A stretch of DNA of 64,000 nt, from the sequence record MZ501058; one strand, written 5' to 3'. The position numbers and the translations under genes are program-made. Origin of the DNA: Escherichia phage DaisyDussoix. Below the pieces are notes generated by a model. It was not told the origin of the DNA and searched no databases. It was given only the letters and a program-made list of their open reading frames with translations. This document shows, piece by piece, positions 12,547 through 49,904 of this stretch (position 1 is its first letter; the number at the start of each line of letters is the position of its first letter).

Positions 12547-12933
12547 ATGAGCAAAGATATAGAATTAGAACACGCCCTGCATAATTATACCTCTTACTTG
12601 GAGGGTAATGAAGTAAAAGAATTAACTAAGGAACAAATCCTACTAATTCTAGATTCTCTAGTTTTAAAGTTTAAAAAACTAGAGGAATACTACTCCGTAG
12701 GTAATGGGGATGAAAGAGTAGAACTATCTCTAAGTCTTCTAGAAGACATGGGGTGGGATGAAGATGACCAAGTAGGGTACTTGGGGATTTCTGTAGAAAT
12801 CTTAGAAAACACAGAACATGAAGATATTTTAGAAGTGAAAAGTAGAACAGCTATTCGTTATGGTACTTATGGAAGTGGAATAACTGGATTAAAAGCGCTT
12901 CTTAGTATGGATCTAGGGTGGTTGGATGAGTAA
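12547..12933 (+). CDS. hypothetical acidic protein
   Basis: 128 aa ORF with RBS. Confidence 0.5.
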   Translation: MSKDIELEHALHNYTSYLEGNEVKELTKEQILLILDSLVLKFKKLEEYYSVGNGDERVELSLSLLEDMGWDEDDQVGYLGISVEILENTEHEDILEVKSRTAIRYGTYGSGITGLKALLSMDLGWLDE

Positions 12934-13471
12934 ACAACCGACACTAGAGAGATTAAAAGAACTTCTAAATTATGATCCTGATACCGGAATATTTACTAAT
13001 AAAATAAGTAGAGGTAAGGGAGGTAAAGCCGGAGCAGTTGCTGGTTATTTAAGAAAAGATGGTTATATAACTATAAAAATAGATAAAGTAGATTATCTAG
13101 CCCATAGACTGGCATTCCTGTATATGACAGGGAGTATTCCTGACTTAGTAGATCATATAAATCGTATACGGTCAGATAATAGATGGAAAAATTTAAGAGA
13201 ATCTACTAGTCAAATTAATAATAGAAACTGCACTGCCTCTAGCAAATCAGGGTACTTAGGGGTACATTGGAATAAGCAACTACAAAAGTGGCAAGTACAG
13301 ATAATAAACTGTGAGGGTAAGAATATTTATGGTGGAATATTCGAATATCTAGACTTAGAGAACGCCGTATTAAAAGCAAATATCTTGAGACACGAGTTAC
13401 ATGGTAAAGATGCTGTAGAAGAAATATTTTATAATAACTATTATCCCACATTAGAGGAACTTAATAGATGA
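12926..13471 (+). CDS. HNH homing endonuclease (AP2-domain type), family A
   Basis: 181 aa; HINRIRSDNRWKNL HNH motif and SGYLGVHWNK..KWQVQI AP2-like segment; paralogs at 39960 and 43998. Confidence 0.85.
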   Translation: MSKQPTLERLKELLNYDPDTGIFTNKISRGKGGKAGAVAGYLRKDGYITIKIDKVDYLAHRLAFLYMTGSIPDLVDHINRIRSDNRWKNLRESTSQINNRNCTASSKSGYLGVHWNKQLQKWQVQIINCEGKNIYGGIFEYLDLENAVLKANILRHELHGKDAVEEIFYNNYYPTLEELNR

Positions 13472-13944
13472 GTACATTTCATATATACACAGATGGTGCT
13501 TGTAAGTCTAATCCAGGTCCAGGTGCTTGGGGTTTTATTGTCTATGATGATAACAACGATCGTTTAGGTTCTAAATCTGGTTATAATCCTAAAACCACAA
13601 ATAACGAGATGGAACTCACAGCTATTGTAGAAGCTCTACGTTGGTCCGTTAAAAAAGATAATAGACCAATTGCTATCTATACTGACTCTGCTTATTGCAA
13701 AAATGGCATGGAAAGTTGGATGTTTTCTTGGCAAAGGAAAGGCTGGAAGAAAGCAGATGGTGAAGTTCCTCTTAATCTAGAACTTTGGCAGGAAGCATTT
13801 AAATTAACACAGCAGTATATCAACTTTCATAATACTAACCCTACCTTTATTAAGGTTAAAGGACATTCTGGTATTAGTGGTAATGAAGCTGTAGATGCAC
13901 TATGTAATACAGTTATTACTGAGCAAGAACTTGCTGAGATGTGA
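13468..13944 (+). CDS. rnh: ribonuclease H
   Basis: 158 aa; MSTFHIYTDGACKSNPGPGAWGF is an RNase HI signature. Confidence 0.9.
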   Translation: MSTFHIYTDGACKSNPGPGAWGFIVYDDNNDRLGSKSGYNPKTTNNEMELTAIVEALRWSVKKDNRPIAIYTDSAYCKNGMESWMFSWQRKGWKKADGEVPLNLELWQEAFKLTQQYINFHNTNPTFIKVKGHSGISGNEAVDALCNTVITEQELAEM

Positions 13945-13964
13945 TAAATAAATTAAAAATTTTC

Positions 13965-13993
13965 TTGCTTAAAGCCCCCTAATTTAGTATAAT
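13965..13993 (+). promoter_or_regulatory. T5-type early promoter
   Basis: TTGCTT -35, AGTATAAT -10. Confidence 0.65.
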
Positions 13994-14020
13994 ATTCGTA
14001 TTGAAAGTGAGGAGGGCTTT

Positions 14021-21204: not shown

Positions 21205-21240
21205 AACCCTGTGTTCCCTGGAGAGCGCAGGGTTTTTCTG
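21205..21240 (+). terminator. rho-independent terminator after SPFH gene
   Basis: AACCCTG...CAGGGTTTTTCTG. Confidence 0.6.
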
Positions 21241-21275
21241 TATAACGTATTTATAAAATCAACTAGGAGATCAAA

Positions 21276-21816: not shown

Positions 21817-21902
21817 GGAAGAATAGCATAACGGTATTGCAGCAGATTGCTAATCTGTCGGTTTGAAATATAGCCTTGTGGGTTCGATTCCCACTTCTTC
21901 CG
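21817..21902 (+). tRNA. tRNA-Ser (anticodon GCU), type II
   Basis: Acceptor GGAAGAA/TTCTTCC, loop TTGCTAA, long variable arm, T-arm GTGGG-TTCGATT-CCCAC, CCA. Confidence 0.85.
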
Positions 21903-21911
21903 CCAAATTCT

Positions 21912-21986
21912 GGTTCTCAAGCTCATATGGTATGAGCACCCAGCTCATAACTGGAAGGTACGTAGGTTCGAATCCTCGGGGAGCCA
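21912..21986 (+). tRNA. tRNA-Met or Ile2 (anticodon CAU)
   Basis: Acceptor GGTTCTC/GGGAGCC with G-U pairs, D-stem GCTC/GAGC, loop CTCATAA, CCA; T-stem pairs imperfectly. Confidence 0.7.
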
Positions 21987-22009
21987 CCAACTTAATTAGG
22001 GGATTACAA

Positions 22010-22198
22010 GTGGAATTATACATAGTTTATGTTGTGTTTATTCAAGATAGAGAATACCCTGATGAATATAAAAAAGGATATAGGTTAGCCAGAGCTACCT
22101 CTGAAGCCCAAGCTATGGATAAAGTGGCAGATTATATGATTACGGTAGAAAACGTACACTATATCGACTACCTTGAGGCCTCAAAAGTAATTGACTAA
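22010..22198 (+). CDS. hypothetical small protein
   Basis: ORF 21863..22198 trimmed to a GTG start after the CAU tRNA, because its 5' part overlaps two tRNA genes. Confidence 0.3.
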   Translation: MELYIVYVVFIQDREYPDEYKKGYRLARATSEAQAMDKVADYMITVENVHYIDYLEASKVID

Positions 22199-22207
22199 GG
22201 AGACTAT

Positions 22208-22393
22208 ATGTCCAAGTTTCAAGAACTCAAGCAAGAGCTAGAAGAATGTGCCTGCCCTGAGTGTAGGGGAATTGGTGAAAGTTCTGATGCAGAAGCAGGA
22301 GATACTTTTTGCAATATCTGGGTTTGCCCAAATTGCAATGGTACAGGTATTAATCCTAACTGTGGTATTTCTCTAGATATTGAAAGAGGGTAA
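22208..22393 (+). CDS. Cys-rich zinc-ribbon-like small protein
   Basis: 61 aa with CxxC...CxxC pairs. Confidence 0.45.
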   Translation: MSKFQELKQELEECACPECRGIGESSDAEAGDTFCNIWVCPNCNGTGINPNCGISLDIERG

Positions 22394-22493
22394 TATCTGT
22401 GAAACTAAAAGATTATTATATTGGTTGGTTTGTGGGACTAGTAGTAGGATTTTCACTAGGCTATAATATGTATCAACTAATAAACTGATTACA

Positions 22494-22567
22494 CGGGGGT
22501 GTAATCGAATTGGCATAGGTACTGGACTTAAAATTCAGGTTTTGTGGGTTCGAATCCCACCACCCCT
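22494..22567 (+). tRNA. tRNA with anticodon UAA (Leu-like) and short variable arm
   Basis: Acceptor GGGGGTG/CACCCCT, anticodon stem CTGGA/TTCAG, loop CTTAAAA, T-arm GTGGG-TTCGAAT-CCCAC, CCA. Confidence 0.7.
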
Positions 22568-22586
22568 ACCAAATTAAGGAAATAAG

Positions 22587-24233: not shown

Positions 24234-24752
24234 GTGCATACAAAAGTTTTTGATAGTTTGGTAAAGAAAGGCGTTGTTACTAATGAGCCCTTCTGTATAA
24301 CCGCAGAACTAATCCAAAGATTTATGGAAGAATATATAAATCTTTCAGGAACCAATGGTAACACCAAAAAGAATACAAATACTATGTATTCGAGAAAACT
24401 TGCTGCACTTTCCTTTATAAAGTTTAAGCAGGAAAATAAACTTCCTATTTCTGAAGGTTTTGTATACTGTATTAGTAATCCTGCATGGAAAAATCAGTAT
24501 AAAATAGGTATGAGTCAAAATCCGAAGGAGAGATTAGCTCAATATCAGACTTATTCCCCTTATAGGGATTATAAGTTAGAGCATTGGTCTTTTTGGTTTG
24601 ACAAACGAAAAGGTGAAAAACTAATTCACCAGTATTTCAAAGATTTAAAAGAACATGAGTGGTTTAGTATAAATTCTAGGGATCTTAGTAAATATCTAGG
24701 ACGTATTAACTCTAGTTCTGACTTATATGGTTCCTTAGCTCTAATTGGTTAG
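24234..24752 (+). CDS. T5orf172-domain (GIY-YIG-related) protein, putative homing endonuclease
   Basis: 172 aa; GFVYCISNPAWKNQYKIGMSQNPKERLAQYQTYSP matches the T5orf172/MUG113 core; 3' end overlaps tRNA-Asn. Confidence 0.75.
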   Translation: MHTKVFDSLVKKGVVTNEPFCITAELIQRFMEEYINLSGTNGNTKKNTNTMYSRKLAALSFIKFKQENKLPISEGFVYCISNPAWKNQYKIGMSQNPKERLAQYQTYSPYRDYKLEHWSFWFDKRKGEKLIHQYFKDLKEHEWFSINSRDLSKYLGRINSSSDLYGSLALIG

Positions 24753-25672: not shown

Positions 25673-25674
25673 AA

Positions 25675-26006: not shown

Positions 26007-26582
26007 ATGGAAGGATTTAAGCCAATACCCGAGTATCCAGAATACTTAGTATCTGAGAAGGGAGAAATATACTCTACTATCAGTAATAAATATCTAAAAC
26101 CTACTATAAACGGAAAAGGCTATTACCACTTTGCAGTACGTGAAGATACTAATAAGTATAAATGGCTCCAGCTGCACAGAGTCATATGCAGAGTTTATGG
26201 CAATCTCCCCTCTTTAGATAGTGAAATGGAAGTAGATCATAATGATCGTAATAAGCTTAATATACTCCCTAGTAATTTAGTTGCCAGAGAGAAGAAAGAT
26301 CATTATGATAAAACTACACTGGAGAGAGGAAAAACTATAGGGGGCACTAGATGTATAGTCTGTAATAAGAGGATACACTCTGGTCGAGAATACTGTATAA
26401 ATTGCAGCCCAGTTAAACAGACTAAATCTCCAGAGATTACCGCAGAACAGATAGAATATTGGGTATCAAAGTATTCCTGGACTAGAGCTGCAAAAGAGTT
26501 AAATTTATCTGATAATGGTCTACGAAAACGGTATACTAAATTAACAGGTAAATCCCCAAAAGAAATTAAAAAATCAGGGTAA
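26007..26582 (+). CDS. HNH homing endonuclease, family B
   Basis: 191 aa; N-terminal PEYPEYLVSEKGEIYS module, EVDHNDRNKLN HNH motif, CxxC...CxxC Zn site; paralogs at 27903 and 29338. Confidence 0.85.
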   Translation: MEGFKPIPEYPEYLVSEKGEIYSTISNKYLKPTINGKGYYHFAVREDTNKYKWLQLHRVICRVYGNLPSLDSEMEVDHNDRNKLNILPSNLVAREKKDHYDKTTLERGKTIGGTRCIVCNKRIHSGREYCINCSPVKQTKSPEITAEQIEYWVSKYSWTRAAKELNLSDNGLRKRYTKLTGKSPKEIKKSG

Positions 26583-26649
26583 GGGCGATAAGGTACGCCA
26601 CCTCGTTTGGGGTGAGGAAATCTTTAGAGTTCGAGTCCTGCCGCACTGA
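26575..26649 (+). tRNA. tRNA-Pro (anticodon UGG)-like; acceptor and T-stem imperfect
   Basis: D-arm GGCG-ATAAGGTA-CGCC, stem CCTCG/TGAGG, loop TTTGGGG, CCA present; acceptor has two mismatches; overlaps HNH ORF end. Confidence 0.45.
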
Positions 26650-26658
26650 CCAAACAAC

Positions 26659-27902: not shown

Positions 27903-28487
27903 ATGCAGTTTGTACCAATAAAAGATGCACCAGGGTATTTAGTAAATGAGGCGGGGGATGTGTTCTCTACATTTACTAATAAAGTTTTATCAAGATATAT
28001 AGTTGATGGATACCCTGCTGTAAAATTACAGATAAATGGTAAACAAACCTCTGTACTTATACACCGAATTATTTCTCATGTATTTGGGGACTTATATAAT
28101 CTATTTGACCCTGAACTAGAGGTAGATCATAAGGATAGAGATAGACTGAATCTATCTAAAGATAATCTTCAAGTCCTATCAAAAATAGAACATCAGAGGA
28201 AAACTAATAAAGATAATGGGTGGTCTGACAGTAGAGTACCTTGCCCCCTATGTGGGAGTCTAATGCTTCAGAGATCTGTAACATGTACAAATTGTAAGCC
28301 AAAACCTACAGGAAGGTTGATAAAACCAGAATTGTCTTTAGACGACATAACTGAAAAGGTTTTATTAATGGGGTGGGTTAAGGCAGCTAAAGAGTTAGAA
28401 GTATCAGAGTCCACTTTGCGCAGGAGGTATACTAAACTAACTGGATTAAGCCCAAAAGTATTAACAGAACAATGGAAAAGCAAGTAG
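27903..28487 (+). CDS. HNH homing endonuclease, family B
   Basis: 194 aa; EVDHKDRDRLN HNH motif, same architecture as 26007 and 29338. Confidence 0.85.
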   Translation: MQFVPIKDAPGYLVNEAGDVFSTFTNKVLSRYIVDGYPAVKLQINGKQTSVLIHRIISHVFGDLYNLFDPELEVDHKDRDRLNLSKDNLQVLSKIEHQRKTNKDNGWSDSRVPCPLCGSLMLQRSVTCTNCKPKPTGRLIKPELSLDDITEKVLLMGWVKAAKELEVSESTLRRRYTKLTGLSPKVLTEQWKSK

Positions 28488-29337: not shown

Positions 29338-29919
29338 ATGAAATTAGAGAATTTCAAAGTAATTCCTGAGTATCCAGAATACTTAATCTCTCCATACGGA
29401 GAGGTTTACTCTACCAAGAGTAATAAATTACTTACACATCATTTAGGCAGTGCGGGATACCTGTTTGTAACGTTCTATGAACAGGGTAAAAATGTTTCTG
29501 TTGTACTGCATAGATTATTGGCTAGAGTATTTAAAGATTTACCTTCGCTAGAATCTGAACTAGAGGTGGATCACAAAGATAGGAATAAATTGAACTTTGC
29601 CCTGGATAATCTAGTTGTCATGACCAAGGAAGATCACAGAGTAAAAACTACACTTGAAAGAGGACATATAATAGGTGGTAACAAGTGCCCTTATTGTAGT
29701 AAACAAATAAATTCTTCAGCTAAAACTTGTTTTGATTGTAAACCTAAGAGTAACCCTGCTATTACAGCAGAGCAAATAGAATATTGGGTAATAAATTATT
29801 CGTGGGTTAAAGCATCAAAAGAGCTGGGACTATCTGATAATGGTCTACGTAAACGTTATAAATCCTTAACAGGTAAAGATCCAAAAAGTATTAAGAAGAA
29901 GGTTAGCCAAGTCGGTTAA
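29338..29919 (+). CDS. HNH homing endonuclease, family B
   Basis: 193 aa; EVDHKDRNKLN HNH motif; 3' end overlaps the following tRNA. Confidence 0.85.
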   Translation: MKLENFKVIPEYPEYLISPYGEVYSTKSNKLLTHHLGSAGYLFVTFYEQGKNVSVVLHRLLARVFKDLPSLESELEVDHKDRNKLNFALDNLVVMTKEDHRVKTTLERGHIIGGNKCPYCSKQINSSAKTCFDCKPKSNPAITAEQIEYWVINYSWVKASKELGLSDNGLRKRYKSLTGKDPKSIKKKVSQVG

Positions 29920-29968
29920 GGCTGGGGTCTCTGAAATCCTGATCAGTGGTTCAAATCCACTACTTTCT
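29897..29968 (+). tRNA. tRNA-Gln (anticodon CUG)
   Basis: Acceptor AGAAGGT/ACTTTCT, loop CTCTGAA, T-arm AGTGG-TTCAAAT-CCACT, CCA; overlaps last 22 nt of HNH ORF. Confidence 0.65.
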
Positions 29969-29978
29969 GCCAAACAAT

Positions 29979-38965: not shown

Positions 38966-38974
38966 TTAATAACT

Positions 38975-39000
38975 GAGGCGGGAATATTCCCGCCTTTTTA
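38975..39000 (+). terminator. rho-independent terminator after endolysin
   Basis: AGGCGGGAATATTCCCGCCTTTTTA. Confidence 0.7.
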
Positions 39001-39042
39001 GGCAAAGGGGGCTTTAATAATTTTTGAAGATAGGAGAAAGCC

Positions 39043-39459: not shown

Positions 39460-39472
39460 GATAAAAAAGTAG

Positions 39473-39501
39473 TTGACTTTTAGCCCTAGTTATTATATAA
39501 T
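39473..39501 (+). promoter_or_regulatory. T5-type early promoter
   Basis: AGTTGACTTT ... ATTATATAATATATACATAAATTAGTTAAGAGAGG. Confidence 0.65.
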
Positions 39502-39534
39502 ATATACATAAATTAGTTAAGAGAGGTATATATT

Positions 39535-39963
39535 ATGTCTGATCGTTTCTATACTCAAATGGCGGAACATTTTCGTATACCACATTACGAGCTAAACATT
39601 GCACTCCGTGATCATGACTCTCCTGAGTACAAAAAGCTCGAAAAGAAAGCGGAAAAATCTATTGATACAAAGGTAGGTGCATCTATGTCTAAGGGCAAAA
39701 AGTTAACTCGTCTTGATCTTAATAAAATTTTAACTGAACTTTTGGGTACTGATATTGAAGGTGCTAAATTACCGCTTCTTGTACTAGAGACTATGATTAA
39801 AAAGGTCAAAAATAAAGAGTATAAGAAGGTAGAAGTCCCAGAAGGCAGATTAAAGGCTCCCTATCAGGAAGCATTAACCGAGTGTTTGGGTGTAAATCTT
39901 GATCTGAGCACCGCAACCGTTAAGTGCATGAAAAACTTCTTAGAAGCTATTAATAAACTATGA
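39535..39963 (+). CDS. hypothetical basic protein
   Basis: 142 aa ORF with GAGAGG RBS. Confidence 0.5.
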   Translation: MSDRFYTQMAEHFRIPHYELNIALRDHDSPEYKKLEKKAEKSIDTKVGASMSKGKKLTRLDLNKILTELLGTDIEGAKLPLLVLETMIKKVKNKEYKKVEVPEGRLKAPYQEALTECLGVNLDLSTATVKCMKNFLEAINKL

Positions 39964-40487
39964 TTACACAGGATACTCTTAAACAGATGTTCAATTACGA
40001 CCCTGAAACGGGAATCTTTACATGGAAAGTAAGTAGAGGACCGAAAAAGAAGGGTGATATAGCAGGAACACTCACTAAAGATGGGTACATTAGGATAACC
40101 ATTAATAAACGCCCTTATTATGCGCAGCAATTAGCATGCCTATACATGACTGGAGAATGGCCAGAGCATGAGATGGACCATGAAAATCGCATAACCTATG
40201 ATAATAGGTGGTGTAATATTCGTAATGCTACTAAACAGGAAAATCTAAGAAATAGGAAAGCATGGAGTAAATCCGGCTATTTAGGAGTTTCATGGAATCG
40301 AGGTAAGTGGCAAGTCTACGTCGTGAACTCAAATGGAGAAAGTATATCCGGCGGGCGTTTTGAACATAAAGATTTAGAATTGGCAGTTAAATCAGCCAAT
40401 ACTTTAAGAGCAAAATTGCACGGGGAACGTGCTATTTTTGAAGAATTTACAGGATATATACCTAATATTGGAGAGTTAAATAAATGA
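39960..40487 (+). CDS. HNH homing endonuclease (AP2-domain type), family A
   Basis: 175 aa; HENRITYDNRWCNIRNATKQENLRNR and SGYLGVSWNRGKWQV motifs. Confidence 0.85.
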   Translation: MITQDTLKQMFNYDPETGIFTWKVSRGPKKKGDIAGTLTKDGYIRITINKRPYYAQQLACLYMTGEWPEHEMDHENRITYDNRWCNIRNATKQENLRNRKAWSKSGYLGVSWNRGKWQVYVVNSNGESISGGRFEHKDLELAVKSANTLRAKLHGERAIFEEFTGYIPNIGELNK

Positions 40488-40774
40488 GTAAATTAGTTTT
40501 TTTATTGAAAGGTTCTACTTGCAATCCTTGCAAAATGTTTGAGCCAGTATTTGATAAAGTAGTCAATGAATATAATTTGGAAGTCCATAAAGAGACTGAT
40601 AATACAGAATTAATGCAGAAATTTGGTGTGCGCCAAGTACCTGTAGTAGTTCTGGCGGATCGCTTACCTAATGGTCGAGTAGAAGCTAATCATATTTTGA
40701 TTGGACGTCAGCTTCGTAAAGAAACTATGCACGAAGCTATTAAAAATTTCCTGGACGATAATCCAGAGGATTAA
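40484..40774 (+). CDS. thioredoxin/glutaredoxin-like protein
   Basis: 96 aa; CNPC redox motif near N-terminus. Confidence 0.6.
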   Translation: MSKLVFLLKGSTCNPCKMFEPVFDKVVNEYNLEVHKETDNTELMQKFGVRQVPVVVLADRLPNGRVEANHILIGRQLRKETMHEAIKNFLDDNPED

Positions 40775-40778
40775 TAAA

Positions 40779-40812
40779 CCAAGCCTGATCTTAGCGGATC
40801 AGGCTTTTATTT
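40779..40812 (+). terminator. rho-independent terminator
   Basis: AAGCCTGATC-TTAGC-GGATCAGGCTTTTATTTT. Confidence 0.7.
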
Positions 40813-40815
40813 TAC

Positions 40816-40844
40816 TTGCTTTTTGCTAAAAATTTTGGTATAAT
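40816..40844 (+). promoter_or_regulatory. T5-type early promoter
   Basis: TTACTTGCTT ... TTGGTATAATATTTATATAGATTGATAGGAGG. Confidence 0.65.
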
Positions 40845-40871
40845 ATTTATATAGATTGATAGGAGGATTAA

Positions 40872-41117
40872 ATGTTAGCAGAGCAAGCAAAACATTTAGC
40901 TAGAGTTAATAGAGCCGCATCCCTTAAGAGCCGAAAGAAAACGTATAGATGGGTTAAGCGGAGGATAGTATCTTCTGTCGAGATTGGAGGTTCTTTTGTA
41001 CAGCTTAATCGTGACGAAATTAGTTATGAAGCTATAAAAGCTCTCAATAAAGAGGGTTATACTCTCCAACTATCTAATGATTATGGCACAACTATTTTAA
41101 CTGTTATTTGGGAATAA
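40872..41117 (+). CDS. hypothetical small protein
   Basis: 81 aa ORF with AGGAGG RBS. Confidence 0.45.
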   Translation: MLAEQAKHLARVNRAASLKSRKKTYRWVKRRIVSSVEIGGSFVQLNRDEISYEAIKALNKEGYTLQLSNDYGTTILTVIWE

Positions 41118-41119
41118 TT

Positions 41120-41983
41120 ATGAAAAAAGAATTTAATGTACATAAAACTCTAGTAGTGCCGGATGATGCCAACTTGTTTTTCGTTGGTGATATTCATGGA
41201 TGCAATGATTTGCTAGAAGATGCGTTGATGTTAGCTGGGTATAATAGCAAAAAAGATTGCCTAGTATGTGTTGGTGACTTAATTGACCGGGGCACACAAA
41301 ACTTACAAGTTTTAGCCAAATTCCTGTATAACCCACGTTTTATCAGTGTCCGTGGCAATCATGATCAATTTATGATTGTGGGAGATTGGGCTAATTGGAT
41401 GTATAATGGTGGTATGTGGGCCATGAATGAACTAGATGCAGACACCATTAAAAATATTGCCGAAGATATGGCTGAAAAAATGCCAGTATTCCTAACTGTT
41501 AGACATCGTGGTAAGAAGTTTGGTGTTGTTCATGGTGGTGTACCTTTTACATACAAAGAATGTGGTAATGAAGTAGAAACCCCAGTATGGGATAATCTTA
41601 TTGCACAAGTAGAAGCAGCTAAGGAAGACCCACATGATCATCCTGGATACCATGTTGAGCCATATTTATGGGATCGAGATGTAATCCAAGAAATAGGCTT
41701 CTACTTGTCCAAAAATGGCGAGGAACACCCGTATTTCCAGCGTTATGCAGGATTTAAGGAAAAATACATGGTAGAAGTGCCAGAAGTTAAAGGGGTAGAT
41801 TTCGTGTTTCACGGACATACTGGGGTTCCTTACCCAATACTCCATAAAAACCGTGTTTATCTTGATACTGGCGGTGTTTTCAACGGGCAGTTGACGGTTG
41901 CGCAAGTTAACGATGAAACAGGTAAAATCACCACATTTACCACAGACAAAAATAATAGCTGCGGTGTACAGAGGACTCTATAA
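41120..41983 (+). CDS. Ser/Thr protein phosphatase (PPP/lambda-phosphatase family)
   Basis: GDIHGC, GDLIDRG, RGNHD motifs; start set at MKKEFNV. Confidence 0.85.
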   Translation: MKKEFNVHKTLVVPDDANLFFVGDIHGCNDLLEDALMLAGYNSKKDCLVCVGDLIDRGTQNLQVLAKFLYNPRFISVRGNHDQFMIVGDWANWMYNGGMWAMNELDADTIKNIAEDMAEKMPVFLTVRHRGKKFGVVHGGVPFTYKECGNEVETPVWDNLIAQVEAAKEDPHDHPGYHVEPYLWDRDVIQEIGFYLSKNGEEHPYFQRYAGFKEKYMVEVPEVKGVDFVFHGHTGVPYPILHKNRVYLDTGGVFNGQLTVAQVNDETGKITTFTTDKNNSCGVQRTL

Positions 41984-42351
41984 TGGAACGTGAAGAACGT
42001 TATGTAGTTATAAAGCTGTCTGATATTGAGAAAGCCCTAGAATTAGGGCATATCACTCAAAGCAACTTTACCACTTTGGAACATATCCTATCTAAACTAC
42101 GGTATAGTCGAGCACAACGTGGTAAGGAGGATCTCAAAACCGTCGTAGTAGAGCATGATTGGCCAGAGTACGAAGAAGTCTGGAAGATGCTAGAGAATCG
42201 TGTTGAATTTGAACAAGCACGACAGGAAGAGATTGACAAAGGCTACCAAGAAGCGAAAGAGCACTATGAGGTTTATGATGAAATATTCAAACTTCGTGGT
42301 ATTAGTAGTTATTGTCAGGGTTGGAATAAATATGCGGAGGAAGTTCTGTAA
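41983..42351 (+). CDS. hypothetical protein
   Basis: 122 aa ORF. Confidence 0.5.
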   Translation: MEREERYVVIKLSDIEKALELGHITQSNFTTLEHILSKLRYSRAQRGKEDLKTVVVEHDWPEYEEVWKMLENRVEFEQARQEEIDKGYQEAKEHYEVYDEIFKLRGISSYCQGWNKYAEEVL

Positions 42352-42458
42352 TGAGAAGGACACGCCAAGAAATTGATGCCGAAGTTCTTCATGGCATTGC
42401 AGTTTGTGTTAGGCTAGCTTTGTTGATGGCCTTACCGTTTATTTTATAAGGATTAAAC

Positions 42459-43049
42459 ATGAAAGTTAAATTCTGGTCAGACTTGCACCTAGACCACCCT
42501 GGAGCGTTACGTTTCCGTCCGTGGTTTAAGAACATGAAAGAGCACGATGAGTATATTCTAGATACTTTGTCCAAGCATATTGGTAAACGAACAAAACTTA
42601 TTTTGCTAGGAGATATTGCAGTAGGTCGTGAAGGTCTAGCTAAATTAAAGTCGGTTATCCACAATGTTCCTAATCAACTGATTATGGGTAATCATGATGC
42701 AGAACGTCAGGGACTGAGTATTAGGGACTTGGCGGAAGTTTATGACGATATTCAGGCTCTAGGTAAACAGACTGGAGGCGGCAAAAAGTTTTGGCTATCT
42801 CACTGTCCTTTGCACCCTAATGAACTTCGTGGCAAACTAAATATTCATGGACACGTACATACTACTTCTCTACGTGATCCACGTTATATCAATGTTTCAT
42901 TTGAAATGAGTAAAACTCCAATTTCATTAGAGGATATTGTGTCTGGTAAGTTTACTAGTTACGATAGAGTAGTTAACTGTACTACCGGCGAGGTATTACA
43001 AATAGGGGAAGACGTAGCTGCTGTATTGCGTGGTGATATAAATGTATAA
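42459..43049 (+). CDS. calcineurin-like metallophosphoesterase
   Basis: 196 aa; SDLHLDH, LGDIAVG, GNHD, GHVHT motifs. Confidence 0.75.
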   Translation: MKVKFWSDLHLDHPGALRFRPWFKNMKEHDEYILDTLSKHIGKRTKLILLGDIAVGREGLAKLKSVIHNVPNQLIMGNHDAERQGLSIRDLAEVYDDIQALGKQTGGGKKFWLSHCPLHPNELRGKLNIHGHVHTTSLRDPRYINVSFEMSKTPISLEDIVSGKFTSYDRVVNCTTGEVLQIGEDVAAVLRGDINV

Positions 43050-43157
43050 GTATATAGCTGAGGCTATTATTAAACGAATCATACAAGCGATAGCAATACT
43101 TATAATCATTTGTATTGCTATTGGCACAGGACTAGGCATTTTAATTAAAAGTTTTAT

Positions 43158-43186
43158 TTGCTAAAATGCTTAAGTTTCTGTATAAT
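43158..43186 (+). promoter_or_regulatory. T5-type early promoter
   Basis: TTTATTTGCT ... TCTGTATAATTACTTTATAAATTGATGAGAAGG. Confidence 0.7.
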
Positions 43187-43216
43187 TACTTTATAAATTG
43201 ATGAGAAGGAATCAAA

Positions 43217-43648
43217 ATGAACAAAGTTGATAAAGCTCTAGTTTTCGCAGCAGCAGATAAGTTTGAACAAGTTAAGGCAACTTTCCGAACCTTGTTCCAG
43301 TCTTACGTTCAGGATAAGTCTAATCCTATCTCTGAACGTTTGATGGTCTGGGAATGTCATGCTTGCAATGCCCTATTAATTGCGGATTATCGTAGCGATA
43401 TAGATAAAGATCTGTGCGAAATTCTTATCGCTGAGGAGGCAGAACGTTATCAGTTAATCTCTTTCCAAGATTTGGCGGAGCATATCATTCCTGATGATCT
43501 TTGGGATAAATACTACGGTGATCCTGAAGATGAGGGAATGACTCCAGAAGCCTGTATTGAGCTGATCTGCAAAGATCATCCTGAAATTGCAGAGAAATTT
43601 GAAAAAGTTTTTGCTTCTGAGTTCTCCGGCGTTGTTAACGATTGGTAA
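43217..43648 (+). CDS. hypothetical protein
   Basis: 143 aa ORF. Confidence 0.5.
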   Translation: MNKVDKALVFAAADKFEQVKATFRTLFQSYVQDKSNPISERLMVWECHACNALLIADYRSDIDKDLCEILIAEEAERYQLISFQDLAEHIIPDDLWDKYYGDPEDEGMTPEACIELICKDHPEIAEKFEKVFASEFSGVVNDW

Positions 43649-43664
43649 GTAATTAAAAATTCAG

Positions 43665-43693
43665 TTGCTTTAAGCCTTAAAATTCTGTATAAT
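43665..43693 (+). promoter_or_regulatory. T5-type early promoter
   Basis: TTCAGTTGCTT ... TCTGTATAATAAGTTCATAAATTAATGAGAGAGG. Confidence 0.7.
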
Positions 43694-43725
43694 AAGTTCA
43701 TAAATTAATGAGAGAGGAAATTCTA

Positions 43726-44001
43726 ATGGAAAACATGACTAAAGACTTCGATGCCTCTAACCTTACCAAGACTGAAATGGCCAATGTATTAGCAATTCTC
43801 CTCGACATGCAAGGATTTGAGGGGCAACTGATGAAAATGTCCATCCCAGCAATGAAAAAGATGTACGATTCTCTTAATAAGAACGCTATGGCCTTTAACT
43901 TAGCGAAACAAGAGGCACGATTTGCTAAGGAGCATCAAGCAGTGGCAGAACGCCGAGCAGCTAGCTTTGAGCGCGAAGTCAAGCAATTAAAGAAAAAATG
44001 A
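43726..44001 (+). CDS. hypothetical protein
   Basis: Internal Met (MENMTKDF) after GAGAGG RBS in ORF 43708..44001. Confidence 0.45.
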   Translation: MENMTKDFDASNLTKTEMANVLAILLDMQGFEGQLMKMSIPAMKKMYDSLNKNAMAFNLAKQEARFAKEHQAVAERRAASFEREVKQLKKK

Positions 44002-46708: not shown

Positions 46709-47155
46709 ATGAGAGAAAAAGTAAATGAATTATTAATCGAGGAAGCTAACAACTTCCCAATAAATAGGTTTATCAAATCTGATGGATCTATTAATAGAAC
46801 TAAGATTAAGCAGCTACATCCCGACTTTCAGCAAGAAGCACTAAATCTTATATTTATCAAGAAAGCTATTGCAGCTCATGGAGCTTTCTTTGGGTATGAG
46901 CGTGTAAATTATAAAACAATGCAACAGCAAGTCGAGATCTATTGTCCAGATCATGAAGGGTATTATTGGCAAACTGCTAGATCTCATTTAGAAGGGCATG
47001 GTTGTCGACTGTGTGCACACAAGGTTGTGCAGCGTGTCACGGATTATGGAACTTATACCGTACCAGCATGTTATCATAAATTTGTAATTGACGATAATCA
47101 TATAGTTTGGTATAATAAGTTTTCAAAGTTAAGAATGGAGATAAATAGTGAGTAG
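46709..47155 (+). CDS. hypothetical protein with putative Zn-ribbon domain, paralog of the N-terminus of 49176..49904
   Basis: Start MREKVNELLIEEANN; shares NRFIKSDGSINRTKIKQLHPDFQQEALNLIFI...GYERVNYKT...ARSHL.GHGC..CA with the 49176 ORF. Confidence 0.55.
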   Translation: MREKVNELLIEEANNFPINRFIKSDGSINRTKIKQLHPDFQQEALNLIFIKKAIAAHGAFFGYERVNYKTMQQQVEIYCPDHEGYYWQTARSHLEGHGCRLCAHKVVQRVTDYGTYTVPACYHKFVIDDNHIVWYNKFSKLRMEINSE

Positions 47156-47438: not shown

Positions 47439-47659
47439 TAATTATTTTAGCAGTTATGTTATTTATTGTAACATTTGTATCATTTGCTATTATGCGCAGA
47501 GCTAAAGAACTAGCGGAAGATATAACAAAATTACGCGGTGAGTTAGCTGCTCTTAAATTACAGCGTGAGGCTTTAAAGTTGTTTGTGGTTCAGGGTAGTG
47601 TAGAGCATACAGCAGAAGACTTCATCATATATCTCAAACGTTACATGGGAGTTAAATAA
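47426..47659 (+). CDS. small membrane protein
   Basis: 77 aa, N-terminal TM helix. Confidence 0.45.
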   Translation: MEIIVIILAVMLFIVTFVSFAIMRRAKELAEDITKLRGELAALKLQREALKLFVVQGSVEHTAEDFIIYLKRYMGVK

Positions 47660-47844
47660 TGGAAACTCTTTTTCTTTTAATGCTCGTAGGTTCCTTGCTA
47701 GTTATATTAGCACTTCTACTGATCTGCAATATTCTTAATAATAAGAATCTAGAGCTAAAGTGTGAGAACCAAATCCTTAATCGTGAACTTAAACAATATA
47801 ACCTAGCAGCCCATAAACTGTTAGACAAACTGGAGAATAAATAA
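47659..47844 (+). CDS. small membrane protein
   Basis: 61 aa, N-terminal TM helix. Confidence 0.4.
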   Translation: METLFLLMLVGSLLVILALLLICNILNNKNLELKCENQILNRELKQYNLAAHKLLDKLENK

Positions 47845-48458
47845 TGTTTACACAACAACCTATTCAAGTAGTACCAGACCATGAACTGAACACATGGGAT
47901 TATAGCTTTAAAGATTTAACGGCTACTGTACAATTCAAATCTATGAAGCTAACATTTGCACACACTGACCTTAGAGCATGTAAAGATCTTGAAAGTAAGC
48001 TCGAAGATGCTCGTAAGATTTTTGGCACGGCCCGCATCCCGGCTGATAACCTGATTAATGCACTAATCGATGCAGGGTACAAACTCGTGAAGACCGAGGT
48101 GAACCGCCCCAGTACTCCAGTGACTATTAGAGATCCGTGGCAATCAGGGCCAATCGCAATGCTGAATAACTCCGATAAAAGATTAATGTCAGATTTGCAC
48201 AATGTTCCATGTGGTGGTGTGGTAAGTAGTACGCAGTCATACAAGTTTGGTGAAGACTACGGCCCTTCTGTACAGCTGAAACATACTCAAGAAGCTTTTG
48301 AATCTGATATGCGAAGCGTAGCACCTGCGGATGCTGGAGTTTCTAGGAGTTCTGTTTGTACTATTCATTTTAATAATCCTAGTAAACATGGAAGCTTAGA
48401 AGATGCTATTATGGAGGCATTGGGAGCTGCTATTAATGAAGATAAGAGGGGTAATTAA
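47844..48458 (+). CDS. hypothetical protein
   Basis: 204 aa ORF. Confidence 0.55.
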   Translation: MFTQQPIQVVPDHELNTWDYSFKDLTATVQFKSMKLTFAHTDLRACKDLESKLEDARKIFGTARIPADNLINALIDAGYKLVKTEVNRPSTPVTIRDPWQSGPIAMLNNSDKRLMSDLHNVPCGGVVSSTQSYKFGEDYGPSVQLKHTQEAFESDMRSVAPADAGVSRSSVCTIHFNNPSKHGSLEDAIMEALGAAINEDKRGN

Positions 48459-49183
48459 TGAGTATAAAAAAGAATTTAGCAGAGATTATTAAGTTAGCTA
48501 GAGCTTGTAATGGAAAATGTGTTTCTCAGCTTAATGAACTAGAAGCACATGCAGTAGCATTTTGTGCAGAGTTTTATCCTGCATACCTTAATGCTAGTGG
48601 GCAACCTAAATATAATAAGGATGCCGAAGAAGTTACGTTAGCTCCTTCATATATTAGCTTGCGTCGTTTAATTCAAACCGTTGATCCTACTATTAAAGGA
48701 TTCTCAGCAGATTCATTCCACGTCTTTGCAGATAAAGAACTCCCGTATTTTAAAGAAGGAAATGCAAAGTCATGTCTAGAATGTTATCCAAATATTCTGA
48801 TGATTCCTCAAAAGCAATGTAAATACGATCATCTTCCTAGACTTACAAAGAAAGTAGAACCACCTTATTCTTCTCTGTCTGAATTAAAGCTAGGAATTGT
48901 ATCTACGCTTGCGCAGGTTCATCTAAGTATAGTTGACGACTCAACAACATCTAACCCTATTCTAGATGCTGCACATTATGAAATCTTACGTGATCCTGAG
49001 CAGGCTAGAAAAGTTGCGAAGTCTGTTAAGTTTGACATCTCAACAATTCTTGACACTAAACAAGAAACTAGACCTAGAGGAAGTGTAGATTATTCTGCGC
49101 TAAATTCCGAGTCATCTTACTTAGCAACATTCCTTTTCATGGCGTCAAAAGGGGTTATTCTAAAGGTTAATAAAGATGGATGA
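48458..49183 (+). CDS. hypothetical protein
   Basis: 241 aa ORF. Confidence 0.55.
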   Translation: MSIKKNLAEIIKLARACNGKCVSQLNELEAHAVAFCAEFYPAYLNASGQPKYNKDAEEVTLAPSYISLRRLIQTVDPTIKGFSADSFHVFADKELPYFKEGNAKSCLECYPNILMIPQKQCKYDHLPRLTKKVEPPYSSLSELKLGIVSTLAQVHLSIVDDSTTSNPILDAAHYEILRDPEQARKVAKSVKFDISTILDTKQETRPRGSVDYSALNSESSYLATFLFMASKGVILKVNKDG

Positions 49184-49904
49184 TTTACGTGCTGAAATTA
49201 ATAAAAAGTTACGAGAGGAAGCCCGGAGGTTTCCTCTTAAAAACTTTTTGAAGTCAAATGGCTCTACTAATATAACGAAGATTAGGCAACTTCACCCTGA
49301 CTTCCAACAAGAGGCCTTAAACCTTATCTTTATTAGGAAAGCTTTAAAAGTCCAGAAAGAAGAGTATGGGTATGAAAGAGTTAATTATAAGACAGCCAAT
49401 CAGTTAGTAGAGATATGGTGCTATAAACATAAAGGATACTTTATGCAAACTGCTAGATCTCACCTAGATGGGCACGGTTGTTTACAATGTGCTAGGGAAA
49501 GCAACCTAAATACACCTATCGAGAAACCGGAGGTAGAAGAAGATGTTCAGTCCCCCACATATCTCTATATCTTCTCTAATAAAGATCAGTCTAGGAAGAA
49601 ATTAAAGACAAAGATTGGGTTTTCTAGAGAGCCACATCAAAGGTTTAAGAATCTAGAGTATGATAAATTGCGTGTGCCGGGTTTTGAAGATATGGAAGTA
49701 TTTGGTATCTACCAGTATAAGAAAGGATCGAAAGAACTCGCTTACAAAATAGAACACCAAGCACATAAATTTTTCGAGAATAAATTTGCTAACCATTATA
49801 AATTCGATGGAGCAAAAGAGATATTCAACATTAAAGCTGTAGAGGCAGAAGAATATCTATTAAGTCAAGGTTGCATAAAAATTTACCCAACTCCAAACTC
49901 ATGA
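49176..49904 (+). CDS. T5orf172/GIY-YIG-like domain protein with N-terminal Zn-ribbon-like domain, putative homing endonuclease
   Basis: 242 aa; C-terminal YLYIFSNKDQSRKKLKTKIGFSREPHQRFKNL resembles T5orf172 core; N-terminus paralogous to 46709. Confidence 0.6.
   Translation: MDDLRAEINKKLREEARRFPLKNFLKSNGSTNITKIRQLHPDFQQEALNLIFIRKALKVQKEEYGYERVNYKTANQLVEIWCYKHKGYFMQTARSHLDGHGCLQCARESNLNTPIEKPEVEEDVQSPTYLYIFSNKDQSRKKLKTKIGFSREPHQRFKNLEYDKLRVPGFEDMEVFGIYQYKKGSKELAYKIEHQAHKFFENKFANHYKFDGAKEIFNIKAVEAEEYLLSQGCIKIYPTPNS

What the first reader, a model, noticed from the sequence alone, without database searches (positions are those of the whole stretch)
12926..49904. Heavy load of free-standing endonuclease-like genes in three families
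There are three AP2-HNH genes (12926, 39960, 43998), three NUMOD-like HNH genes (26007, 27903, 29338), and T5orf172/GIY-YIG-like genes (24234, 49176). An N-terminal Zn-ribbon-like domain is shared between 46709 and 49176. That is at least eight mobile-endonuclease-like genes in 37 kb, indicating active intragenomic spread. The 46709 gene may be a truncated derivative or a separate DNA-binding protein.
Basis: partly seen in the sequence, partly recalled or inferred. Interest (0 to 1): 0.45.

Follow-up and report, generated by a model that had tools for sequence, protein, structure and literature searches.

The report
Homing endonuclease genes in T5-like phage
The window is the early/tRNA region of a T5-like phage and really does carry eight free-standing homing-endonuclease genes of three known families, but this load and its patchy distribution are already well documented for T5 and its relatives, so the finding is correct and ordinary.

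Summary
The window is a Tequintavirus (T5-like) early/tRNA region. It holds exactly three HNH_3+AP2 genes (12926, 39960, 43998), three NUMOD4-HNH_3-HTH genes (26007, 27903, 29338) and two T5orf172 (GIY-YIG clan) genes (24234, 49176); six-frame profile searches found no others. The AP2 label, sub-threshold in Pfam, was confirmed by a family profile hitting plant AP2 structures and by a confident model matching AtERF1. 27903 and 29338 are orthologs of T5 F-TflI and F-TflII, and 24234 is T5.069. Each gene is sporadic among collinear relatives (4 to 94 of more than 500 phage records), with precise empty sites, linked flank changes and dN/dS of 0.02-0.24. This is classical homing between co-infecting phages. 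"Active intragenomic spread" is not supported: paralogs are only 39-59% identical, while positional orthologs elsewhere are mostly 95-99% identical. 46709 is T5.023. It shares a treble-clef Zn-finger DNA-binding module with 49176 (63% identity), is near-universal (26 of 28 relatives) and is strongly constrained (100% protein identity to T5 at dS 0.40). It is a conserved stand-alone protein, possibly a domesticated HEG DNA-binding domain like CapR. HEG variability in T5-like phages is already published.

The parts
12926..13471 (+). A1: free-standing HNH_3 + C-terminal AP2 homing endonuclease gene (181 aa), inserted between thy and rnh
   Evidence: Pfam HNH_3 E 1.2e-14. AP2 confirmed by profile and by fold. 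98% identical to the BF23 'H-N-H-endonuclease'. Absent from T5 at this site. Present in 4 phage records and 5 of 27 related loci.
12547..12933 (+). 128-aa acidic ORF that travels with the HNH gene at the thy|rnh site (passenger of a two-gene cassette), function unknown
   Evidence: Lies inside the 958-bp insertion relative to T5. phrog_26840, unknown function. No Pfam hit. Found only in the 6 of 27 loci that carry an HNH gene at this site, including one with a different HNH lineage.
39960..40487 (+). A2: HNH_3 + AP2 homing endonuclease gene (175 aa), inserted exactly at the stop/start overlap of the T5.038 and T5.037 (thioredoxin) orthologs
   Evidence: Pfam. Precise empty site in 19 of 28 relatives, and the same site occupied by diverse HNH lineages in 9. 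Present in 18 phage records.
43998..44534 (+). A3: HNH_3 + AP2 homing endonuclease gene (178 aa), replacing the small T5.031 ORF
   Evidence: Pfam. Present in 94 phage records and 11 of 28 related loci, in two allele groups (97-99% and 66-73%). dN/dS 0.04-0.10.
26007..26582 (+). N1: NUMOD4-HNH_3-Zn ribbon-HTH homing endonuclease gene (191 aa) in the tRNA cluster, replacing T5.066 and the 5' part of tRNA-Pro
   Evidence: Pfam NUMOD4 + HNH_3. 58% identical to T5 hegD. Present in 12 phage records and 0 of 22 IMG/VR loci.
26583..26655 (+). Degenerate tRNA-Pro(UGG) remnant directly downstream of N1
   Evidence: The anticodon arm is recognisable, but there is no ARAGORN call and no Rfam tRNA hit at E<=10.
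27903..28487 (+). N2: ortholog of T5 hegC = F-TflI (194 aa); its stop codon lies inside the tRNA-Ser(GGA) gene
   Evidence: 99.5% amino-acid identity to T5.064, named TflI in AY543070. Overlap with the tRNA. Present in only 1 of 22 related loci, T5 itself.
29338..29919 (+). N3: ortholog of T5 hegD = F-TflII (193 aa); its last 23 nt are the 5' end of its own tRNA-Gln(CUG) allele
   Evidence: 94% amino-acid identity to T5.061 F-TflII. HEG-free relatives carry a different tRNA-Gln(CUG). Present in 4 of 20 loci.
29897..29972 (+). HEG-linked tRNA-Gln(CUG) allele, co-inherited with N3
   Evidence: ARAGORN call. The allele differs completely from that of HEG-free loci, and L074 keeps this allele with only a 3' stub of the HEG.
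24234..24752 (+). G1: T5orf172/MUG113 (GIY-YIG clan) gene (172 aa), ortholog of T5.069; its stop lies inside tRNA-Asn
   Evidence: Pfam MUG113 E 1.8e-15 and T5orf172 E 5.8e-12. 97.7% identical to T5.069. Present in 9 of 22 loci. Overlaps tRNA-Asn at 24729-24806.
49176..49904 (+). G2: N-terminal helical region + one treble-clef Zn finger (DUF723/DUF4379 type) + C-terminal T5orf172 domain (242 aa)
   Evidence: Pfam T5orf172 26.7 bits against a cut-off of 20. Close homolog named 'endonuclease', with PF10544 + PF05265 on record. The Zn module is a repeat found in more than 14,000 proteins. Present in 33 phage records and 3 of 25 loci.
46709..47155 (+). Z: ortholog of T5.023 (148 aa); same N-terminal region and Zn finger as G2 but no nuclease domain; a conserved stand-alone protein
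   Evidence: 63% identical to G2 residues 4-106. 100% amino-acid identity to T5.023 at dS 0.40, with dN/dS 0-0.17. Present in 26 of 28 relatives and 208 phage records.

Best explanation
The window is the early and tRNA-gene region of a T5-like phage (Tequintavirus). Its eight endonuclease-like genes are free-standing homing endonuclease genes (HEGs) of three known kinds:
- I-HmuI-like HNH_3 nucleases with a C-terminal AP2 DNA-binding domain (A1, A2, A3; relatives of T5 F-TflV).
- NUMOD4-HNH_3-Zn ribbon-HTH nucleases in the tRNA cluster (N1, N2 = F-TflI, N3 = F-TflII).
- T5orf172 (GIY-YIG clan) proteins (G1 = T5.069; G2, which has a treble-clef Zn-finger DNA-binding module).

Each gene sits at a fixed intergenic position. 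The start and stop codons usually overlap those of the neighbouring genes, or the stop lies inside the next tRNA gene.

Inferred mechanism, from what is known of these families:
1. When a HEG-bearing and a HEG-free phage co-infect a cell, the enzyme cuts or nicks the HEG-free allele near the empty site.
2. Recombinational repair copies the HEG and adjacent flank into the recipient.
3. The HEG-linked allele itself is not a target.

The three paralog sets are old lineages, each tied to its own site, not recent copies made within this genome.

The 46709 gene (T5.023) is a conserved stand-alone protein that shares the DNA-binding module of G2. It most likely works as a sequence-specific DNA-binding protein without nuclease activity.

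Shown here: domains, orthology, sporadic site-specific distribution, precise empty sites, linked flank alleles, purifying selection. Inferred: cleavage, target sites, homing itself, and what Z does.
For: Identity of the region:
- Megablast matches 533 T5-like records at 80-99% identity, and the window is collinear with T5.

Domains:
- Pfam hits above cut-offs.
- AP2 and I-HmuI by family profile, and AP2 by fold.
- PHROG and PADLOC 'HNH/homing endonuclease' families.

Orthology to named T5 enzymes:
- N2 is 99.5% identical to TflI and N3 94% to F-TflII; A1, A2 and A3 are 57-63% identical to F-TflV.

Sporadic distribution:
- The genes occur in 4, 18, 94, 12 and 33 phage records, against 208 for Z and more than 500 for the backbone.
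- Site occupancy in 20-28 related genomes shows minority presence and precise empty sites.
- The pattern is reciprocal with T5: its hegA, E, F, G and H sites are HEG-free here, while A1, A2, A3, N1 and G2 are absent from T5.

Signs of homing:
- A2 is inserted exactly at the ATGA stop/start junction. The A2-lineage loci share a left-flank polymorphism that is absent from empty sites.
- N3 is linked to a distinct tRNA-Gln(CUG) allele, and one relative keeps that allele with only a stub of the HEG.
- Identity to T5 shifts across A1, N1 and A2.
- dN/dS is 0.02-0.24 for all tested HEGs, and one degenerate A2 copy exists elsewhere.

Literature:
- HEGs such as the F-Tfl enzymes are the main source of differences among T5-like genomes (PMC10644984).
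- T5orf172 HEGs are abundant in T5-like phages and usually carry DUF723/DUF4379/CapR Zn-finger modules (PMC10448857).
- HNH_3 with NUMOD, HTH or AP2 modules is typical of HEGs (PMC5714182).
Against: - No cleavage, target site or homing event was or can be tested here.
- For T5orf172 proteins of T5-like phages I found no biochemical evidence of nuclease activity. The G2 model was too poor (pLDDT 47.5) to confirm a GIY-YIG fold.
- Strong purifying selection on the HEGs is compatible with ongoing homing. It is also compatible with a benefit to the phage.
- At the A2 site, occupants range from 30 to 99% identity. That needs either repeated independent invasions of one site or replacement in situ, and I did not resolve which.
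- The identity shift is absent across A3.
Confidence: 0.9

Rival explanations
1. Active intragenomic spread: the paralogs arose by recent copying of an endonuclease gene to new sites within this genome.
For: Three members per HNH family lie within 37 kb, and members of one family sit at different sites. The A family occupies at least four different sites across T5-like genomes, including the T5 hegE site, so moves to new sites have happened at some time.
Against: Paralogs are only 51-59% (A) and 39-57% (N) identical, and G1 and G2 are essentially unrelated outside the domain. Each gene has orthologs at the same site in other phages, mostly 95-99% identical. Divergence between Z and G2 is saturated at synonymous sites. 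No near-identical copies or fragments exist in the window.
Confidence: 0.04
2. The genes are kept mainly because they benefit the phage (excluding or degrading co-infecting competitor genomes, marking boundaries of genetic exchange, or other roles such as regulation or genome nicking), not as purely selfish elements.
For: dN/dS is 0.02-0.24 for all tested genes. Identity to T5 shifts at three HEG positions, as in the 'nucleases at boundaries of exchange' model (PMC10448857). Marker exclusion by phage HEGs is documented for T4 SegB (PMC2330249).
Against: Every one of the eight is absent from most close relatives, so none is needed for growth. Degenerate or deleted copies occur. This reading overlaps with homing and does not replace it.
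Confidence: 0.3
3. The 46709 gene (Z) is a decaying, truncated pseudogene copy of a G2-type endonuclease.
For: Z shares 103 N-terminal residues with G2 and lacks the T5orf172 domain. A possible vestige of the first catalytic strand aligns: HIVWYNK with YLYIFSNK. The PHROG family of Z also covers G2 residues 1-144.
Against: Z has 100% protein identity to T5.023 despite dS of 0.40, and dN/dS is 0-0.17 including the C-terminal tail. It is present and full-length in 26 of 28 relatives and in 208 records, mostly at 95-99% nucleotide identity. That is the signature of a working protein.
Confidence: 0.03

Closest known systems
T5 free-standing HNH endonucleases F-TflI, F-TflII, F-TflIV (Akulenko et al. 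2004) and the annotated F-TflV to P-TflVIII (hegA to hegH of T5, AY543070/NC_005859)
   Same: N2 and N3 are the orthologs of F-TflI and F-TflII (99.5% and 94% amino-acid identity) at the same positions in the tRNA cluster. N1 is a third member of that family. A1, A2 and A3 are 57-63% identical to F-TflV.
   Different: This genome carries a different subset. T5's hegA, E, F, G and H sites are HEG-free here, while A1, A2, A3 and N1 occupy sites that are empty or differently filled in T5.
I-HmuI (PDB 1u3e) and the HNH_3 group of His-Me finger homing endonucleases with AP2 modules (Magnani 2004; Wessler 2005; PMC5714182)
   Same: The family profile hits I-HmuI over the HNH core and plant AP2 domains over the C-terminus. 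The model's C-terminal domain matches AtERF1. The D-H...N...N residues are conserved.
   Different: I-HmuI is intron-encoded and uses a different C-terminal DNA-binding region. These genes are free-standing and use AP2.
T5orf172 homing endonucleases with CapR/DUF723/DUF4379 Zn-finger DNA-binding modules (Barth, Dunham and Seed 2023, PMC10448857)
   Same: G2 has one such Zn finger followed by a T5orf172 domain. Relatives carry 4-14 tandem copies of the module. The paper notes that T5orf172 genes are abundant in T5-like phages.
   Different: G2 has a single module preceded by a helical region of about 50 residues. G1 has no detectable Zn finger.
CapR of the Vibrio cholerae PLE satellite, a domesticated HEG DNA-binding domain acting as a repressor (PMC8096241)
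   Same: Like CapR, Z is a stand-alone protein homologous to the Zn-finger DNA-binding part of T5orf172 HEGs, lacks the nuclease domain, and is conserved.
   Different: Z is encoded by the phage itself, not by a satellite. Its motif is CxxH...CxxC, not CxxC...CxC. No DNA binding or regulatory role has been shown, and I did not test homology to CapR itself.
T4 SegB, a GIY-YIG homing endonuclease in the T4 tRNA gene cluster (PMC2330249)
   Same: It is a HEG embedded in a phage tRNA cluster with its 3' end abutting a tRNA gene. The paper proposes that tRNA processing of the transcript limits its expression, and mentions the T5 F-Tfl genes in the same context. Here the G1, N2 and N3 stop codons lie inside tRNA genes.
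   Different: Different nuclease families for N1-N3. Preferential inheritance is shown for SegB but not tested here.

Membership tests
HNH_3 / I-HmuI-like His-Me finger nuclease (A1, A2, A3, N1, N2, N3) | Significant match to the HNH_3 profile above the curated cut-off | tested here: met
   All six score above the 24.8-bit cut-off, from 26.6 to 54 bits. The family profile hits I-HmuI 1u3e at E 3.2e-6.
HNH_3 / I-HmuI-like His-Me finger nuclease (A1, A2, A3, N1, N2, N3) | Conserved catalytic and metal-binding residues of the beta-beta-alpha-metal motif (D-H...N...N/H) | tested here: met
   In the 71-sequence alignment H77 and N89 are invariant, and D76, N98 and N101 are at least 90% conserved. 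The N-type proteins read VDHxDRNKLN...H.
HNH_3 / I-HmuI-like His-Me finger nuclease (A1, A2, A3, N1, N2, N3) | Site-specific DNA cutting or nicking | not testable with these tools
   Reported for T5 F-TflI and F-TflII (Akulenko 2004, cited in PMC2330249 and PMC10644984; I did not read the paper itself). Nothing is reported for the A-type proteins.
AP2 DNA-binding domain (C-terminus of A1, A2, A3) | Sequence match to AP2 | tested here: met
   Single-sequence Pfam is sub-threshold (E 0.14, 12.9 bits against 33.3). The family profile hits WRI1 at E 3.9e-8 and TEM1 at 8.4e-5. About a third of homologs carry PF00847 on record.
AP2 DNA-binding domain (C-terminus of A1, A2, A3) | Three-stranded sheet packed on a helix (AP2/ERF fold) | tested here: met
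   Model pLDDT 94.8, with strands 113-116, 121-127 and 133-139 and helix 141-162. Foldseek to 1gcc_A: rmsd 1.6 A, TM 0.76, probability 1.0. Modelled for A1 only.
NUMOD4 module (N1, N2, N3) | Match to the NUMOD4 profile above its cut-off | tested here: met
   N1 scores 29.6 bits and N3 28.4 bits against a cut-off of 23.4. N2 gets no NUMOD4 hit, but aligns over its full length with N1 and N3 at 39% identity.
T5orf172 / GIY-YIG clan (G1, G2) | Match to T5orf172/MUG113 profiles above cut-offs | tested here: met
   G1: 57.7 and 46.4 bits. G2: 26.7 against 20, and 23.9 against 22.3. A multi-repeat relative also gives a weak GIY-YIG hit.
T5orf172 / GIY-YIG clan (G1, G2) | GIY-YIG-like fold and nuclease activity | tested here: inconclusive
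   The G2 model has pLDDT 47.5, with the catalytic domain below 50, so no fold search was run. Activity is not testable here.
Free-standing homing endonuclease gene | Presence/absence polymorphism at a fixed site among otherwise collinear close relatives, with precise empty sites | tested here: met
   Shown. For example, the A2 site is empty with the ancestral gene overlap in 19 of 28 loci.
Free-standing homing endonuclease gene | Co-conversion of flanking markers and a HEG-linked resistant allele | tested here: inconclusive
   Consistent signs only: a left-flank polymorphism linked to the A2 lineage, a distinct tRNA-Gln allele linked to N3, and identity shifts across A1, N1 and A2. The target sites are unknown.
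Free-standing homing endonuclease gene | Preferential inheritance in mixed infection that depends on the nuclease | not testable with these tools
   Needs phage crosses.
Domesticated HEG DNA-binding protein (CapR-like) for Z | Homology to the DNA-binding module of a HEG, with the nuclease domain absent | tested here: met
   63% identity to G2 residues 4-106, E 4e-46. No T5orf172 hit even at E<=10. The module is typed as DUF723/DUF4379 in relatives.
Domesticated HEG DNA-binding protein (CapR-like) for Z | Maintained by selection as an independent gene | tested here: met
   dN/dS 0-0.17, and 100% amino-acid identity to T5 at dS 0.40. Present in 26 of 28 genomes.
Domesticated HEG DNA-binding protein (CapR-like) for Z | Sequence-specific DNA binding with a regulatory or protective effect | not testable with these tools
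   No functional literature was found for T5.023.

The most novel reading that the evidence does not exclude
T5.023 (46709-47155) may be a domesticated homing-endonuclease DNA-binding domain that has become a near-core gene of T5-like phages. It is a stand-alone treble-clef Zn-finger protein derived from a G2-type T5orf172 endonuclease. It could act as an early-gene regulator, or it could occupy the target site of G2-type endonucleases and so protect the genome from invasion by co-infecting relatives. It would be a phage-encoded counterpart of the satellite repressor CapR. A weaker second possibility is that the acidic 128-aa ORF travelling with the HNH gene at the thy|rnh site is a functional cargo spread by the endonuclease.
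Probability: 0.4. Interest if true: 0.35.

Novelty: already known. Interest (0 to 1): 0.15.

Why it matters
It matters little as a discovery. Heavy and variable homing-endonuclease loads are a textbook feature of T5 and its relatives, two of the genes are orthologs of enzymes characterised in 2004, and the domain architectures are published.

The useful by-products are:
- A clean site-by-site map of which endonuclease occupies which position in this genome compared with T5.
- Direct confirmation that the T5 F-TflV-type enzymes carry a true AP2 fold.
- Evidence that the tRNA-cluster genes drag their own tRNA alleles along, and in one case leave a damaged tRNA-Pro.
- The observation that T5.023 is a strongly conserved stand-alone copy of an endonuclease DNA-binding module, which would be a cheap and sensible target for a knockout or DNA-binding experiment.

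Tried and rejected
- Single-sequence Pfam and PDB searches for AP2 failed or were sub-threshold. I replaced them with a family profile and a structure model, which succeeded.
- The structure prediction of G2 from a six-sequence alignment gave pLDDT 47.5, so no fold search was run. The GIY-YIG-like fold of G2 therefore rests on Pfam only.
- Nine ORFs in other gaps of T5 homology were scanned with Pfam, and an overlapping set of nine with PHROGs: 21863, 22208, 27102, 33406, 41983, 42459, 43708, 48458, 52917, 53426. None is endonuclease-like, so they are not hidden HEGs.
- PADLOC gave only 'homing endonuclease' models, plus a weak candidate-system hit (PDC-S57) for G1. There is no support for a defence-system reading.
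- The word-indexed protein search with G2 found only four clusters. The exhaustive search was needed to see the repeat family.
- A literature search for T5.023 found nothing relevant.
- I considered whether these HNH genes make the T5 genome nicks and rejected it, because each gene is missing from most relatives.
- I did not resolve whether the 30-99% identical occupants of the A2 site reflect independent invasions or in-place replacement.

Full report
**What the window is.**
Megablast of 24000-44000 matches 533 phage records at 80-99% identity. Nearly all are T5-like phages of Salmonella, Escherichia and Klebsiella, including T5 itself at 92%. A local blastn map shows the window + strand is collinear with the T5 minus strand. 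It runs from nrdA/nrdB through the tRNA cluster to the pre-early terminal-repeat region. ARAGORN finds 23 tRNA genes between 19.9 and 31.3 kb. So the finding lies in the early/tRNA region of a Tequintavirus.

**Checking the observation.**
All ORFs exist at the stated coordinates. Pfam gives hits above curated cut-offs:
- HNH_3 for 12926, 39960 and 43998 (called A1, A2, A3 here).
- NUMOD4 + HNH_3 for 26007 and 29338 (N1, N3), and HNH_3 alone for 27903 (N2).
- T5orf172/MUG113 for 24234 and 49176 (G1, G2).

Identities:

| Comparison | Amino-acid identity |
|---|---|
| A1, A2, A3 pairwise | 51-59% over full length |
| N1, N2, N3 pairwise | 39-57% |
| G1 vs G2 | 24% (share only the domain) |
| G2 residues 4-106 vs the 46709 product (Z) residues 1-103 | 63% (E 4e-46) |

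The region shared by G2 and Z has a CxxH...CxxC motif. Profile and phmmer searches of all 573 stop-to-stop segments of the window, in six frames, find exactly these copies and no fragments.

**The AP2 claim.**
Pfam AP2 was only sub-threshold for two of the three proteins (E about 0.14), and a single-sequence PDB search found nothing. I collected homologs. The best is a BF23 'H-N-H-endonuclease' at 98% identity, and about a third of the hits at 45-55% identity carry PF00847 on record.

I aligned 71 of them and searched PDB with the profile:
- WRI1 AP2 domain: E 3.9e-8.
- TEM1 AP2 domain: E 8.4e-5.
- I-HmuI, over the HNH core: E 3.2e-6.

An AlphaFold model of A1 has pLDDT 94.8. Its C-terminal sheet-plus-helix domain matches the AtERF1 GCC-box domain 1gcc with rmsd 1.6 A and TM 0.76. 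'AP2-HNH' is therefore correct.

**Orthology to known T5 genes.**
In the original T5 submission, T5.064 (hegC) is named TflI, T5.061 (hegD) F-TflII and T5.075 (hegA) TflIV. The window's genes relate to T5 as follows:

| Window gene | T5 counterpart | Amino-acid identity |
|---|---|---|
| N2 | TflI (hegC) | 99.5% |
| N3 | F-TflII (hegD) | 94% |
| N1 | F-TflII (hegD) | 58% |
| G1 | T5.069 | 97.7% |
| Z | T5.023 | 100% |
| A1, A2, A3 | F-TflV (hegE), which sits at a fourth site | 57-63% |

Conversely, T5's hegA, hegE, hegF, hegG and hegH positions are HEG-free in the window, while A1, A2, A3, N1 and G2 are absent from T5. The total load is about the same as in T5.

**Presence/absence mapping.**
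Megablast of each gene against 50,697 phage records finds:

| Gene or insert | Records |
|---|---|
| A1 insert | 4 |
| A2 | 18 |
| A3 | 94 |
| N1 | 12 |
| G2 | 33 |
| Z | 208 |
| Backbone (24000-44000) | more than 500 |

I then fetched 20-28 related genomes around four anchor genes and measured what lies between the conserved flanks of each site:

| Site | Occupancy in related loci |
|---|---|
| A1 | 5 orthologs plus one different HNH, of 27 |
| A2 | Empty with the ancestral gene overlap in 19 of 28; occupied in 9 by HNH genes 30-99% identical to the window's A-type proteins |
| A3 | 11 of 28, in two allele groups |
| G1 | 9 of 22 |
| N1 | 0 of 22 |
| N2 | 1 of 22 (T5 itself) |
| N3 | 4 of 20 |
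| G2 | 3 of 25 |

At the A2 site the insertion is exactly at the ATGA stop/start overlap of the two flanking genes. The A2-lineage loci share a left-flank polymorphism that is absent from empty sites. Identity to T5 shifts across three of the insertions:
- A1: 94.4% to 89.6%.
- N1: 97.1% to 87.3%.
- A2: 95.3% to 89.7%.

There is no such shift across A3.

**The tRNA-cluster genes.**
- The stops of G1, N2 and N3 lie 24, 14 and 23 nt inside the tRNA-Asn, tRNA-Ser(GGA) and tRNA-Gln(CUG) genes.
- HEG-free relatives have a quite different, canonical tRNA-Gln(CUG). N3-bearing genomes have their own allele.
- One relative keeps that allele with only the last ~40 nt of the HEG.
- Downstream of N1 the tRNA-Pro gene is reduced to a remnant that neither ARAGORN nor the Rfam tRNA model recognises.

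These features fit invasion with flank replacement followed by occasional loss. They also fit the published suggestion that tRNA processing limits expression of such genes (PMC2330249).

**Selection.**
Against positional orthologs, every tested HEG has dN/dS of 0.02-0.24. One A2 ortholog elsewhere has an internal stop. The genes are kept as working proteins, with occasional decay.

**Z and G2.**
- Z is present in 26 of 28 relatives.
- It is identical in protein to T5.023 despite dS of 0.40, and dN/dS is 0-0.17 including its 45-residue tail.
- Z and G2 are saturated at synonymous sites, so they diverged long ago.
- An exhaustive search with G2 finds more than 14,000 proteins. Most carry 4-14 tandem copies of the ~60-residue module (G2 residues 51-113), and some end in T5orf172.
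- Pfam types the module as DUF4379 (treble-clef Zn finger) and DUF723.
- MAFFT aligns Z's HIVWYNK with G2's YLYIFSNK, the first strand of the catalytic domain. This is a weak hint that Z descends from a truncated endonuclease.
- The G2 model was unusable (pLDDT 47.5).

**Comparison with the literature.**
- PMC10644984 states that HEGs such as the F-Tfl enzymes account for most differences among T5-like genomes.
- PMC12639943 reports HNH HEGs among the genes unique to a new Tequintavirus.
- PMC5714182 lists NUMOD, HTH and AP2 modules as typical partners of HNH_3.
- PMC10448857 reports that T5orf172 genes are abundant in T5-like phages, and that 87% of T5orf172 HEGs carry CapR/DUF723/DUF4379-type Zn fingers, often repeated and shuffled.
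- PMC8096241 describes CapR, a stand-alone domesticated derivative.

Both the finding and its parts are therefore already known in kind, and largely in detail.

**Verdict.**
The 'intragenomic spread' inference is wrong in emphasis, because the signal is site-specific homing among genomes of a phage population. The only mildly new angle is that T5.023 looks like a domesticated HEG DNA-binding domain kept by nearly all T5-like phages. I rate the finding as already known, with interest 0.15.

Noticed in passing
window 12547-12933: An acidic 128-aa ORF (phrog_26840, no Pfam hit) lies in the same 958-bp insertion as A1. It occurs only in the 6 of 27 related loci that have an HNH gene at the thy|rnh site. 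One of these is L026, where the HNH is a different lineage (62% to A3) but the ORF is 75% identical. It looks like a passenger in a two-gene mobile cassette.
   Followed up: partly
window 26583-26655: A degenerate tRNA-Pro(UGG) lies right after N1. The anticodon arm is preserved with compensatory changes, but the 5' half and the T-stem are disrupted. There is no ARAGORN call and no Rfam tRNA hit at E<=10, so the window seems to lack a working tRNA-Pro, which T5 has.
   Followed up: partly
window 29897-29972; loci L060, L064, L070, L073, L074: N3 is linked to its own tRNA-Gln(CUG) allele, whose first 23 nt encode the end of the endonuclease. HEG-free relatives have an unrelated canonical tRNA-Gln(CUG). 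L074 keeps the HEG-type allele with only the last ~40 nt of the HEG.
   Followed up: partly
window 21999-22565: Where T5 has hegA (F-TflIV), the window has a small ORF matching a Q-like anti-termination PHROG (22208-22393, phrog_6060), an ORF of unknown function (21863-22198), and a tRNA-Leu(UAA) at 22495-22571 that is not annotated in the T5 region examined.
   Followed up: no
window 33406-33825: A 139-aa ORF of unknown function (phrog_5486, no Pfam hit) occupies the site where T5 has hegE (F-TflV).
   Followed up: no
window about 21234-21243: About 1.9 kb of T5 (37840-39728, genes T5.077-T5.079 on the opposite strand) has no counterpart in the window. The flanks join directly.
   Followed up: no
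window 52917-53411 and 53426-53767 (minus strand): Two ORFs (164 and 113 aa; phrog_6741 and phrog_16959, unknown function) form an ~885-bp insertion relative to T5 in the pre-early region, between the T5.011 and T5.012 orthologs.
   Followed up: no
window 41983-43049: The T5.034 phosphoesterase is replaced by a 122-aa ORF of unknown function plus a diverged 196-aa calcineurin-like metallophosphatase (Pfam Metallophos E 2.5e-4).
   Followed up: no
loci L072 and L081 (site equivalent to window 27903-28487): In two relatives the N2 (F-TflI) site holds a T5orf172-type gene (41% identical to G1) and not an HNH gene. Different nuclease families can therefore occupy the same tRNA-cluster position.
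   Followed up: no
locus L049 (ortholog of window 39960-40487): The A2 ortholog in this relative (the 117,842-bp contig) is 98.7% identical in nucleotides but has an internal stop codon, so it is a decaying copy.
   Followed up: no
window 21912-21989 and 28474-28567: Sequences matching T5's annotated tRNA-Ile(CAU) (100% identity) and tRNA-Ser(GGA) (first 39 nt at 97%) are present but were not called by ARAGORN. The tRNA count of 23 is therefore an underestimate.
   Followed up: no
window 48458-49183: The 241-aa ORF upstream of G2 (phrog_8993, unknown function) lies in a hypervariable slot. Relatives carry alleles only 32-50% identical, or unrelated sequence. G2 is always found just downstream of this ORF when it is present.
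   Followed up: partly
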